A DNA stretch of 38,098 nt from a virus (Duplodnaviria; Heunggongvirae; Uroviricota; Caudoviricetes). This document shows, piece by piece, positions 9,001-12,000 of this stretch (within the stretch, counting starts at the first letter, position 1; each line of letters opens with the position of its first letter). Position numbers: made by a program. Where the stretch lies: IMG/VR virus record IMGVR_UViG_2563366991_000005; one strand, 5' to 3'.

Positions 9001-12000
9001 GGTGGAAAAGCGAAGGTGGAGTATTGCTATGCAGTAAATGTACCAGGTGACAGGGAAATTGTAACCCACAGCTTTGCTGAGTGGGCTGTGGGGGATTTCA
9101 ACCGGCAGAAGGAGACAGTCCTTTGCGACAAGTTAACCGCTGGTTCAAAGATCACTACGGAGTGCCCGTCAGAGTCATTCGTTGGGAGCCGGAAACACAA
9201 CGGGTTATCTACCTCCGTGAAGGCTATGAGCATGAGTGCTTCAGCCCGCTCGAACAGTTTCGTCGTAAATTCAGGGAAATAGAGGTCGGTCATGAGCACT
9301 AAATTAACCGGCTATGTATGGGATGGTTGCGCTGCGTCAGGCATGAAATTATCCAGCGTGGCAATTATGGCCCGCCTGGCTGATTTCAGTAATGACGAAG
9401 GTGTGTGCTGGCCATCAATTGAAACTATTGCCCGTCAGATTGGCGCGGGGATGAGTACCGTCAGAACGGCTATCGCACGGCTGGAAGCAGAAGGCTGGTT
9501 AACGCGTAAGGCGCGTCGCCAGGGTAACCGCAATGCGTCGAATGTTTATCAGCTTAACGTTGCGAAGCTTCAGGCAGCGGCATTTTCTCAACTGTCAGAT
9601 TCTGACCCGTCAAAATCTGACGCATCAAAATCTGACGCATCAAAATCTGACACGTCAAAATTTGATGCGTCGAAATTTGATGCGTCGAAATCTGGCAAAA
9701 AAGCGGGTTTTCACCCGTCAGAATCTGGCGGGGATCCGTCAGTAAAATCAAAACATGATCCGTCAGATAAAAAACCTTCTCGTCCGGACGCTTCGCAACC
9801 GGACACGCAGACGGCTGAACAGGATTTTTTAACTCGCCATCCTGATGCGGTTGTATTCAGCCCTAAAAAGCGCCAGTGGGGAACGCAGGATGATTTGACC
9901 TGCGCACAGTGGCTCTGGAAAAAAATCATTGCCCTGTACGAGCAGGCCGCCGAATGTGACGGCGAGGTGGTTCGTCCCAAAGAACCGAACTGGACAGCAT
10001 GGGCAAACGAAATTCGCCTGATGTGTGTGCAGGATGGTCGTACTCACAAACAAATCTGCGAGATGTACAGCCGCGTCAGCCGCGATCCGTTCTGGTGCCG
10101 TAACGTGCTCAGCCCGTCGAAGTTGCGGGAAAAATGGGATGAGCTTTCCCTGCGCTTATCGCCGTCCGTCAGCACGCACACAGAAAAACGTGAAGACCCG
10201 TACTTCAAAGCCAGTTACGACAACGTGGACTACAGCCAGATCCCGGCAGGATTCAGGGGGTGATCATGAGTCTTTTGAATGACGTTCAGAAATTCATTGA
10301 AGCCCATCCGGGCCGTACTTCCGGAGACATTGCGGATGCTTTTGCAGGTTACTCACGGCAGCGCGTTCTGCAGTCAGCAAGCAAGTTACGTCAGAGTGGG
10401 CGTGTGGCTCACCGTTGTGAAGGAGATACACGCAGACATTTCCCGCGCCTGACTGAGAGAGCGCAGGAGCCGGAACCACAACCTGTTCGTGAAACCAGAC
10501 CTGTGCGCAATTTCTATGTCGGCACTAACGATCCCCGGGTGATTTTGTGCCTGACCCGCCAGGCTGAAGAGCTGGAGTCCAGGGGCTTATACCGTCGTGC
10601 TGCAACGGTGTGGATGGCGGCATTCCGTGAAAGTCACTCCCAGCCAGAACGAAACAACTTTCTGGCGCGTCGAGAGCGGTGCTTACGGAAAAGCAGCAAG
10701 CGCGCTGTATCGGGTGATGAATGGTATCTGTCAGGGAATTACGTGGGGGCTTAATGACGACGTTAACTCAGTGTCAGCAGCAGGTGCTGGATATGCTGAT
10801 TTCTTACCAGCAAGAACGTGGCTTTCCGCCAACCAATCAGGAGGTGGCAACCATGCTGGGATACCGTTCAGTGAATGCAGCGGTGGAGCATCTTCGCGCA
10901 CTGGAGAAAAAAGGCGTCATCACGATAAAGCGTGGTGTGGCCCGGGGGATCACGCTTCATACCGCGGTGAAGGACGACGACAGCGAGGCGGTCGGGATTA
11001 TCCGCTCACTGCTTGCCGGTGAGGAAAACGCAAGGCTGCGTGCAACTCACTGGTTACATGAGAGAGACCTGAAAGTATGAAGCTGATCCTGCCTTTCCCG
11101 CCCAGCGTGAACACGTACTGGCGACACCCCAACAAAGGGGCGTTTGCTGGTAAGAGCCTGATAAGCGCGGCGGGGCGAAAATTCCAGAGCGCGGCGTGCG
11201 CAGCAATAGTTGAGCAGTTACGTCGTCTGCCGAAACCAACGTCGGCACCTGCTTCAGTGGAGATCGTGTTGTTTCCTCCGGATAACCGGATCCGTGATCT
11301 GGACAACTATAACAAGGCGCTGTTTGACGCCCTGACCCACGCGGGTGTGTGGGAAGACGACAGTCAGGTGAAAAGAATGCTGGTGGAGTGGGGACCGGTT
11401 ATCCCGGAAGGGAAGGTCGAGATCACTATCAGTAAGTACGAGAAAACGGCGGGTGCAGCCGCCTGAGCAAAAGGAGAAACGAAGTATGAATAATCTGATG
11501 GTCATTGATGGTATTGAAGTTCGTCGTGATGCTTATGGGCGTTACAGCCTGAACGATCTGCACAGGGCTGCCGGTTCTCTGGATAAGCATAAGCCTGCAT
11601 TCTGGCTCCGCAATGAGCAAACTGAACGTTTAATAAGCGAGTTGCAGATTTGCAACTCGGTCAATATAGAGCCAGTTAACGTTATTCGTGGCGGAAATAA
11701 CCAGGGGACGTATGTCTGCAAAGAACTGGTGTATGCCTATGCAATGTGGATCAGCCCGGCATTCCATCTGAAGGTGATCCGTACTTTCGATATGGTAACC
11801 AGCGCACCGGAAAAATTATCCGGGCAGGCTGCTGACAAGATGCAGGCTGGTGTGATTCTGCTGGACTTTATGCGCCGGGAGTTAAACCTGTCTAACTCTT
11901 CAGTGCTTGGTGCCTGTCAGAAACTCCAGGAGGCTGTTGGCTTACCGAATCTGGCACCGCGCTATGCCATTGATGCTCCTGCTGACGCGCCTGATGGCTC

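What the first reader, a model, noticed from the sequence alone, without database searches (positions are those of the whole stretch)
10754..11080. Prophage-encoded LexA DNA-binding domain without the autocleavage domain
Seen: a 108-aa ORF whose first ~70 residues align convincingly by eye with the E. coli LexA N-terminal domain, with no S24 peptidase domain but a short C-terminal extension. Inference: a non-cleavable LexA mimic could occupy SOS boxes regardless of RecA activation. Two SOS-box palindromes exist in this prophage (7810-7829 and 17196-17215), giving it potential cis targets.
Basis: partly seen in the sequence, partly recalled or inferred. Interest (0 to 1): 0.6.

Follow-up and report, generated by a model that had tools for sequence, protein, structure and literature searches.

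The report
Phage LexA-like DNA-binding protein, no protease
A small prophage gene really does encode the DNA-binding head of the SOS repressor LexA without its self-cleaving half, but it belongs to a common, already annotated phage family whose function is untested and which travels with a phage nuclease gene rather than with SOS boxes.

Summary
Window 10754..11080 (+) encodes a 108-aa protein. Residues 1-68 are a LexA-type winged helix (Pfam PF01726, E=2.6e-19; 43% identical to E. coli LexA; model 0.9 A from the LexA-DNA crystal structure). There is no S24 peptidase domain. The C-terminal 40 residues form two conserved helices, probably a dimerisation module.

The gene is intact and under purifying selection (pN/pS 0.12). 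It sits in the early-right (nin) operon of a lambdoid E. coli prophage. It is already annotated as "LexA family protein" (PHROG 362; SfV orf42, mEp460 gp46), and the PerC-LexN-RusA segment occurs in about 40% of complete E. coli genomes.

The "SOS-box mimic" reading is only partly supported:
- Four of five LexA DNA-contact residues are kept, but the co-varying pair R28/E44 that marks true LexAs is lost across the family.
- Both phage SOS boxes are real, but each follows its own module (cI allele, methyltransferase). Both also occur in a phage without this gene.
- 34 of 80 related loci have no SOS box nearby.

The conserved partner is a DUF968 His-Me nuclease gene: it lies downstream in 47 of 48 diverse loci, and three protein clusters fuse the two domains. 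The closest characterised analogue is GIL01 gp6. Function remains untested.

The parts
10754..11080 (+). LexN gene: 108-aa stand-alone LexA-type DNA-binding protein (PHROG 362; equivalent to SfV orf42 and mEp460 gp46)
   Evidence: ORF. PF01726 E=2.6e-19. PHROG 362 E=5e-59, full length. pN/pS 0.12 over 53 alleles with no internal stops.
10754..10957 (+). Residues 1-68: winged helix-turn-helix (H6-22, H28-35, recognition helix H40-52, wing E56-58/E66-68)
   Evidence: AF2 model, pLDDT about 88 in this part. Foldseek best hit 3jso (LexA-DNA complex), rmsd 0.9 A over 68 residues. Contact residues S39 N41 A42 V44 E45, compared with LexA S39 N41 A42 E44 E45 (PMC3091678).
10976..11062 (+). Residues 75-103: two conserved amphipathic helices (H75-88, H93-103) after a low-confidence linker; inferred dimerisation module
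   Evidence: AF2 secondary structure, pLDDT 87-89. Pattern conserved to about 40% identity, with A97 and L101 invariant. Dimerisation itself is inferred, not tested.
10260..10754 (+). Upstream PerC/YfdN-like gene; its stop overlaps the LexN ATG. In most relatives a dam methyltransferase gene lies between them.
   Evidence: PF06069 E=1.9e-9. PerC lies at -494 in loci without dam and at -1144 in loci with dam. SfV and mEp460 maps.
11077..11466 (+). RusA Holliday-junction resolvase gene; its ATG overlaps the LexN stop (ATGA)
   Evidence: PF05866 E=6e-15. At +323 in the 78 of 80 close loci where RusA was detected. Absent in many distant loci.
11453..12283 (+). KilA-N domain (antirepressor-like) gene
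   Evidence: PF04383 E=3e-26. Dispensable neighbour in distant loci.
12285..13280 (+). DUF968/YdfU His-Me finger (HNH-like) nuclease gene: the conserved partner of LexN
   Evidence: PF06147 E=1e-80. Downstream on the same strand in 47 of 48 diverse loci. Fused to a LexA wHTH in P0153, P0252 and P0253. Family description in PMC5714182 and PMC4118853.
13283..13654 (+). Q antiterminator gene, marking the end of the nin-type delayed-early operon that contains LexN
   Evidence: PF06530 E=6e-46. No strong plus-strand terminator between cro and Q.
7811..7830 (.). SOS box 1 (claimed cis target), inside the linker of the cI-like repressor gene 7347..8039 (-). Real, but tied to the cI allele and not to LexN.
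17196..17215 (.). SOS box 2 (claimed cis target), at codons 3-10 of the N6/N4 DNA methyltransferase gene 17188..18240 (+). Real, but tied to that gene and not to LexN.

Best explanation
The gene encodes a RecA-insensitive DNA-binding protein, here called LexN. It consists of a LexA-derived winged helix joined by a short flexible linker to a conserved two-helix tail. The tail most likely replaces the LexA C-terminal domain as the dimerisation element.

LexN is translated from the early-rightward (pR, nin-region) transcript during lytic development, coupled to its neighbouring genes. Its reading head keeps the LexA helix-3 core (S39, N41, A42, E45) but has lost the R28/E44 pair typical of true LexAs. 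It therefore probably recognises a LexA-like but not identical palindrome.

Its conserved partner is the DUF968 His-Me nuclease gene just upstream of Q, not SOS boxes. The most likely role is a sequence-specific DNA-binding factor that regulates or targets the phage recombination/nuclease module (RusA, DUF968).

Shown here: domain identity, absence of the protease, purifying selection, operon position, gene linkage and the fusion proteins. Inferred: dimerisation through the tail, altered specificity, and a functional partnership with DUF968.
For: - Domain and fold.
- Tail conserved to about 40% identity, while the A-G pair is not.
- Purifying selection: pN/pS 0.12, 53 alleles, no stops.
- Overlapping start and stop codons with neighbours, and no plus-strand terminator between cro and Q.
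- Same nin-region position in SfV, mEp460, mEp390, and Klebsiella and Edwardsiella phages.
- DUF968 lies 0.2-1.8 kb downstream on the same strand in 47 of 48 diverse loci, whereas RusA and KilA-N are often absent.
- In the phage collection DUF968 is found in 186 records, LexN in 61 and RusA in 409.
- Three protein clusters about 80% identical to each other fuse a LexA wHTH directly to the DUF968 nuclease domain. One of them sits immediately upstream of Q in a lambdoid prophage.
- DUF968 is known to be fused to other DNA-binding and recombination domains (PMC4118853).
- R28/E44 co-variation, and loss of both in this family.
Against: - No binding site was identified. Searches for conserved palindromes in the module and upstream of the gene found nothing.
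- Dimerisation could not be modelled, because the tools predict single chains only.
- The LexN-DUF968 linkage could partly reflect shared descent of a nin-region module.
- DUF968 also occurs without LexN (phage Eeyore).
- Deletions that fuse neighbouring genes are common in decaying prophages (other chimeras appear), so the fusion is suggestive rather than proof.
- Four of five LexA contact residues are retained, so ordinary SOS-box binding remains possible.
Confidence: 0.45

Rival explanations
1. Non-cleavable LexA mimic. LexN dimerises, occupies canonical CTGT-N8-ACAG SOS boxes of host and phage regardless of RecA activation, and re-represses the SOS regulon during lytic growth.
For: - 43% identity to the E. 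coli LexA N-terminal domain, with S39, N41, A42 and E45 kept.
- The fold superposes on DNA-bound LexA at 0.9 A.
- There is no protease domain.
- It is expressed from the lytic operon.
- Strong SOS boxes exist in this prophage.
Against: - R28 and E44 co-vary and are retained together in 78 of the 130 LexA-domain matches scorable at both positions. Both are replaced in this family (N28, V44).
- P40 is also changed to V.
- The phage boxes follow the cI allele and the methyltransferase gene. They persist in Eeyore, which lacks LexN, and 34 of 80 LexN loci have no nearby box.
- Host LexA is a sufficient explanation for those boxes.
Confidence: 0.25
2. Phage transcription factor of the GIL01 gp6 type. 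LexN binds its own, non-SOS palindrome at a phage promoter and activates or represses delayed-early or late genes, independently of DUF968.
For: - Precedent: gp6 is a truncated LexA homologue that activates the late promoter P3 at GaCACAnnTGTGaC (PMC6182141).
- The LexN reading head is altered.
- The gene lies just upstream of Q and the late region.
- Stand-alone LexA-domain proteins are common in phages.
Against: - LexN is not a gp6 orthologue: no BLASTP alignment, and PHROG 362 rather than 3502.
- No conserved candidate operator was found.
- This model does not explain the near-obligate DUF968 adjacency or the fusion proteins.
Confidence: 0.2
3. Decaying remnant: a truncated fragment of a phage or host LexA-like repressor gene with no present function.
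For: It lacks two thirds of LexA. Many frameshifted or fused variants exist in databases.
Against: - pN/pS is 0.12 with no internal stops in 53 alleles.
- Length is conserved at 104-108 aa across Escherichia, Citrobacter, Salmonella and Hafnia homologues; more distant full-length homologues, including mEp390 gp43, are 106-118 aa once N-terminal extensions are set aside.
- The tail is conserved at 40% identity.
- The gene is present in viable phages SfV, SfII, mEp460, cdtI and Stx2 phages.
Confidence: 0.03

Closest known systems
E. coli LexA N-terminal DNA-binding domain (PDB 1lea, 3jso)
   Same: Same winged-helix fold (rmsd 0.9 A over 68 residues) and 43% sequence identity. Helix-3 residues S39, N41, A42 and E45 are identical.
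   Different: LexN has no S24 peptidase/dimerisation domain. R28 is replaced by N, P40 by V and E44 by V. It has a two-helix tail not found in LexA. It is encoded in a phage early operon, not as an autoregulated SOS gene.
Bacillus phage GIL01 gp6 (truncated LexA homologue, activator of late promoter P3; PMC6182141)
   Same: A phage-encoded LexA DNA-binding domain without the cleavage domain, expressed as an early gene. It shows that such proteins can have a non-SOS operator and a non-repressor role.
   Different: gp6 is 66 aa with no tail, and belongs to a different PHROG (3502 against 362). It shows no significant pairwise similarity to LexN. It comes from a Gram-positive tectivirus, and no DUF968 partner was seen there.
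SfV orf42, mEp460 gp46, cdtI and Stx2-phage 'LexA family' proteins (PHROG 362)
   Same: The same protein at 95-98% identity, in the same gene order.
   Different: Nothing differs. These are annotation-only entries ('transcriptional repressor', 'LexA DNA binding domain protein'). No functional study was found in the searchable library.
LexA wHTH::DUF968 fusion proteins (P0153, P0252, P0253)
   Same: A LexA-type winged helix with non-R28/non-E44 residues, encoded directly upstream of Q in a lambdoid prophage.
   Different: The winged helix is covalently joined to the His-Me nuclease domain and lacks the two-helix tail. The fusions are rare: three clusters, all from metagenomes.
LexA N-terminal autocleavage fragment (residues 1-84)
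   Same: A LexA head without the C-terminal domain. From my own knowledge of the LexA literature, the isolated fragment still binds operators weakly and dimerises on DNA.
   Different: That fragment is a transient degradation intermediate with no dimerisation module. LexN is a stable, selected gene product with its own conserved tail.

Membership tests
Canonical LexA repressor (TIGR00498) | N-terminal LexA-type winged-helix DNA-binding domain (PF01726) | tested here: met
   E=2.6e-19, 69.2 bits against cutoff 23.7, full profile 1-65. Fold match to 3jso at rmsd 0.9 A.
Canonical LexA repressor (TIGR00498) | C-terminal S24 peptidase/dimerisation domain with the Ser-Lys dyad | tested here: not met
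   No PF00717 hit. The protein ends at residue 108 and rusA follows immediately. TIGR00498 matches only profile positions 1-91 of 203, at 70.5 bits against cutoff 110.95.
Canonical LexA repressor (TIGR00498) | Conserved Ala-Gly autocleavage site | tested here: not met
   A88-G89 in this allele aligns with LexA A84-G85. The pair is AN, VG, RK, DD and others in family members, and no catalytic domain is present.
Canonical LexA repressor (TIGR00498) | DNA-contact residues S39, N41, A42, E44, E45 (PMC3091678), plus R28 that co-varies with E44 | tested here: inconclusive
   S39, N41, A42 and E45 are kept. E44 is replaced by V and R28 by N. The R28/E44 pair is kept in 78 of the 130 LexA-domain matches scorable at both positions and lost together in 47.
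Canonical LexA repressor (TIGR00498) | Binds CTGT-N8-ACAG SOS boxes and is inactivated by RecA* | not testable with these tools
   Needs EMSA, ChIP and cleavage assays. Genomic association of the gene with SOS boxes was tested and not found.
PHROG 362 (phage 'transcriptional repressor', LexA-head proteins of enterobacterial lambdoid phages) | Full-length profile match including the C-terminal tail | tested here: met
   E=5.3e-59, residues 1-108 against profile 1-106 of 106. mEp390 gp43 and the Klebsiella phage homologue also match.
PHROG 362 (phage 'transcriptional repressor', LexA-head proteins of enterobacterial lambdoid phages) | Position in the nin region between replication genes and Q, upstream of DUF968 | tested here: met
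   Window gene map. 80 close loci. 47 of 48 diverse loci.
GIL01 gp6-type truncated LexA activators (PHROG 3502) | Sequence membership | tested here: not met
   No BLASTP alignment with gp6. The best PHROG for gp6 is 3502 (E=1.8e-21), and it matches 362 only at E=2.8e-5.
GIL01 gp6-type truncated LexA activators (PHROG 3502) | Activates a late promoter from a palindrome overlapping the -35 element | not testable with these tools
   No conserved operator candidate was found. Needs transcription assays.

The most novel reading that the evidence does not exclude
LexN is the DNA-targeting or regulatory subunit of a two-part phage nuclease. A LexA-derived head that RecA cannot remove would direct or gate the DUF968 His-Me nuclease (with RusA) at LexA-like operators. 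Such a device would act on SOS-box-like DNA or re-silence SOS genes after prophage induction.
Probability: 0.15. Interest if true: 0.65.

Novelty: new member of a known kind. Interest (0 to 1): 0.33.

Why it matters
The PerC-LexN-RusA segment sits in about 40% of complete E. coli genomes, including Stx2 and Shigella serotype-converting phages, yet its function has never been tested.

If LexN binds SOS-type operators without being cleavable, it would be a phage switch that uncouples host DNA-damage signalling from RecA during lytic growth. That would have consequences for toxin-phage induction, for competition among co-resident prophages, and for SOS-driven mutagenesis.

If instead LexN works with the DUF968 nuclease, it would give a first functional handle on another widespread nin-region gene of unknown role.

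As it stands, this is a well-annotated, ordinary-looking family member with a testable hypothesis attached, not a discovery.

Tried and rejected
- **Ala-Gly as a relic cleavage site.** I asked whether A88-G89 could serve for trans-cleavage. Rejected because the pair is not conserved in the family.
- **The two phage SOS boxes as LexN targets.** Rejected as a specific association, because each box follows its own module and both occur without LexN.
- **Alternative operator.** I searched for inverted repeats in the module and in three distant loci, and inspected 36 distinct upstream regions. No shared palindrome emerged, and most LexN genes directly abut the preceding coding sequence.
- **Defence-system membership.** PADLOC gave only a marginal CARF-related hit for LexN (E=4.7e-4) and nothing for DUF968.
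- **Structure of the DUF968 protein.** The aim was to identify its N-terminal domain. The model was mediocre (pLDDT 69, residues 1-55 disordered) and gave no significant PDB match, only weak similarity to HNH nucleases.
- **Primary LexA-DNA structure paper.** It was not available. The contact residues come from PMC3091678, and a DNA-contact role for R28 is only my recollection.
- **Literature.** Ten searches found no functional study of the enterobacterial protein.
- **Caveat on the SOS-box scoring matrix.** I built it from E. coli operators recalled from memory, so the bit scores are approximate. The exact CTGT-N8-ACAG search does not depend on it.

Full report
**The sequence.** The window is a lambdoid E. 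coli prophage. Its gene order is:
- integrase at 386..1609;
- a leftward early operon;
- an S24-type cI-like repressor at 7347..8039 (-);
- cro at 8137..8397;
- a cII-like gene and a replication gene at 9292..10263;
- a PerC/YfdN-like gene at 10260..10754;
- the ORF in question at 10754..11080;
- rusA at 11077..11466;
- a KilA-N gene at 11453..12283;
- DUF968 at 12285..13280;
- Q at 13283..13654;
- then a methyltransferase/HEPN/GmrSD-like insert, a second methyltransferase, lysis genes and morphogenesis genes.

The ORF starts at an ATG that overlaps the stop of the PerC-like gene, and its stop overlaps the rusA ATG. No convincing plus-strand terminator lies between cro and Q. The gene is therefore part of the rightward delayed-early (nin-type) operon.

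**Check of the observation.** The 108-aa product matches Pfam LexA_DNA_bind over the whole 65-position profile (E=2.6e-19). It has no S24 peptidase match. It matches the first 91 of 203 positions of the NCBI LexA equivalog, below that model's cutoff. It is 43% identical to E. coli LexA over residues 1-90, and its only solved relatives are LexA proteins.

An AlphaFold2 model (pLDDT 83) gives three helices and a two-stranded wing, a low-confidence linker at residues 69-74, and two further helices at 75-88 and 93-103. The winged helix superposes on DNA-bound LexA (3jso) at 0.9 A over 68 residues.

The allele does carry an Ala-Gly pair ('LLAGE') that aligns with the LexA cleavage site. The pair is not conserved in homologues and there is no catalytic domain, so I do not regard it as a cleavage site.

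**A real gene.** Among 53 distinct full-length alleles recovered from related loci, pN/pS is 0.12 and none has an internal stop. Homologues of 104-108 aa occur in Escherichia, Citrobacter, Salmonella and Hafnia. More distant full-length homologues keep the tail pattern at 40-50% identity, with A97 and L101 invariant.

**How common and how well known.** The PerC-LexN-RusA segment is found at 80% coverage or better in 2171 of 5426 complete E. coli genomes. RefSeq calls the gene 'LexA repressor' or 'LexA family protein'. It is present at 93-98% identity in SfV (orf42), SfII, SfIV, mEp460 (gp46), cdtI, Ayreon and many Stx2a/Stx2c phages. It defines PHROG 362, 'transcriptional repressor'.

Short stand-alone LexA-domain proteins are frequent in phages generally. 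One has been characterised: GIL01 gp6, a truncated LexA homologue that activates the late promoter P3 from its own palindrome (PMC6182141). LexN is not a gp6 orthologue: there is no pairwise alignment, and the two belong to different PHROGs. Ten literature searches found no functional work on the enterobacterial protein.

**Is it an SOS-box mimic?** In favour, four of the five LexA helix-3 contact residues listed in PMC3091678 (S39, N41, A42, E44, E45) are identical. Against, E44 is V here and is A, F, T, L or V throughout the tailed family, and R28 is N (or Y, Q, M, T, V, L or I in relatives).

Among the LexA-domain matches in the 150 best library hits, 130 could be scored at both positions, and the two positions co-vary: 78 R28/E44, 47 with neither, 5 with R28 only, and none with E44 only. 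That the R/E class corresponds to the gamma- and beta-proteobacterial CTGT-N8-ACAG type is my own knowledge, and I could not verify a direct DNA contact for R28. Loss of both residues argues for a changed operator, as in gp6, but does not prove it.

**The two phage SOS boxes.** Both are genuine and strong. Neither is tied to LexN.
- In 80 IMG/VR loci carrying a 96-99% identical gene, box 1 is present in 27 of 27 loci with this cI allele and in 0 of 53 without it.
- Box 2 is present in 28 of 28 loci with the methyltransferase gene.
- 34 of the 80 loci have no box of at least 17 bits within the up to 10 kb held on each side.
- Phage Eeyore has no LexN homologue, yet it keeps both boxes in its diverged cI (68% amino-acid identity) and methyltransferase (82%) genes.

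Host LexA is the default binder of these sites.

**What does travel with LexN.** In distant homologues (mEp390 gp43, a Klebsiella phage and an Edwardsiella phage) the gene is again between the replication genes and Q. Across 48 diverse loci (LexN identity down to about 40%), a DUF968 gene lies 0.2-1.8 kb downstream on the same strand in 47. RusA and KilA-N are frequently missing.

In the phage collection DUF968 occurs in 186 records, LexN in 61 and RusA in 409. Three protein clusters about 80% identical to one another (P0153, P0252, P0253) fuse a LexA winged helix directly to the DUF968 nuclease domain. P0153 lies immediately upstream of Q in a lambdoid prophage.

DUF968/YdfU is a His-Me finger nuclease family. 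Its members are often joined to Orf, Erf, Rad52 or RusA domains and neighbour RusA, Q and antirepressor genes (PMC4118853, PMC5714182).

The linkage has limits. DUF968 also exists without LexN, and deletion-generated chimeras are common in prophages. I therefore treat the partnership as the best-supported lead, not as shown.

**Mechanism proposed.** LexN is made from the early-right transcript after induction or infection. It dimerises through its two-helix tail (inferred) and binds a LexA-like palindrome that RecA cannot clear, because there is no protease domain (shown). It acts with or on the adjacent recombination/nuclease genes (inferred from linkage and fusion).

The rivals are a true SOS-box mimic (about 0.25), a gp6-like stand-alone transcription factor (about 0.2), and a dead remnant (about 0.03, disfavoured by selection).

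**Verdict.** The finding is real, but the family is ordinary and already annotated. It is a new member of the known kind 'phage-encoded truncated LexA homologue'. The added value here is the LexN-DUF968 linkage and fusion, the R28/E44 signature, and the finding that the SOS boxes belong to other modules.

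Noticed in passing
window 7811-7830, within cI-like gene 7347..8039 (-): The SOS box sits in the linker of the cI-like repressor gene. Against Eeyore cI (68% amino-acid identity) it is an island of 13+4 identical bases in an otherwise scrambled linker with an adjacent indel. A conserved TTTAC(C/A) lies 17 nt upstream on the coding strand, so TACTGT could be the -10 of a LexA-repressed promoter inside cI, reading into the S24/C-terminal half.
   Followed up: partly
window 17196-17215, codons 3-10 of methyltransferase gene 17188..18240 (+): A strong SOS box overlaps the 5' end of an N6/N4 DNA methyltransferase gene just upstream of the holin. It is kept in SfV, mEp460 and Eeyore. 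Diverged alleles (80-82% identity) carry the variant TACTGTAAAAATATCCAGTT, which still scores as a good box. This suggests LexA control of that gene.
   Followed up: partly
L028, L051, L052, L053, L059, L069: about +764 (about +2113 in L052) from the LexN start: In some relatives a third SOS box (TACTGTATTTATGAACAGTG) lies just upstream of a variant KilA-N gene downstream of rusA. The layout resembles LexA-controlled antirepressors. It is absent from this window.
   Followed up: no
window 13734-16595: An insert directly after Q carries a C5 cytosine methyltransferase (13734..14774, +) facing a HEPN_MAE_28990 protein (14743..15432, -) and a GmrSD_N/NsnA-like protein (15435..16595, -). This is probably a prophage-borne defence island.
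   Followed up: partly
LexA-domain matches scorable at both positions among the top 150 hits (alignment positions 28 and 44): R28 and E44 of the LexA winged helix co-vary: 78 R/E, 47 with neither, 5 with R only, 0 with E only. This may be a simple sequence marker for the CTGT-type reading head.
   Followed up: partly
L007 3995-4210 (Edwardsiella phage EPP-1 lexA_2): A 71-aa tail-less LexA head sits next to DUF968 and keeps the canonical R28 and E44 ('RSPNAAEDHLKAL'). On sequence alone it is a better candidate for a true SOS-box mimic than the window protein.
   Followed up: no
P0126, P0133, P0141, P0150: Some proteins carry two LexA-type winged helices in tandem on one chain. This is a covalent alternative to dimerisation. 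They come from unidentified metagenomic sources.
   Followed up: no
window 9588-9700, within replication gene 9292..10263 (+): The replication/HTH protein contains a run of short Ser-Lys-Ser/Phe-Asp-Ala peptide repeats (SKSDASKSDASKSDTSKFDASKFDASKS). Their length may vary between alleles: Rep sits at -1432 to -1462 in the loci without dam.
   Followed up: no
window 10754 junction, compared with SfV 29614..30267 and mEp460 35775..36428: This prophage lacks the dam methyltransferase gene that lies between the PerC-like gene and LexN in most relatives (PerC at -1144). Here and in about 17 of 80 loci PerC abuts LexN at -494.
   Followed up: partly
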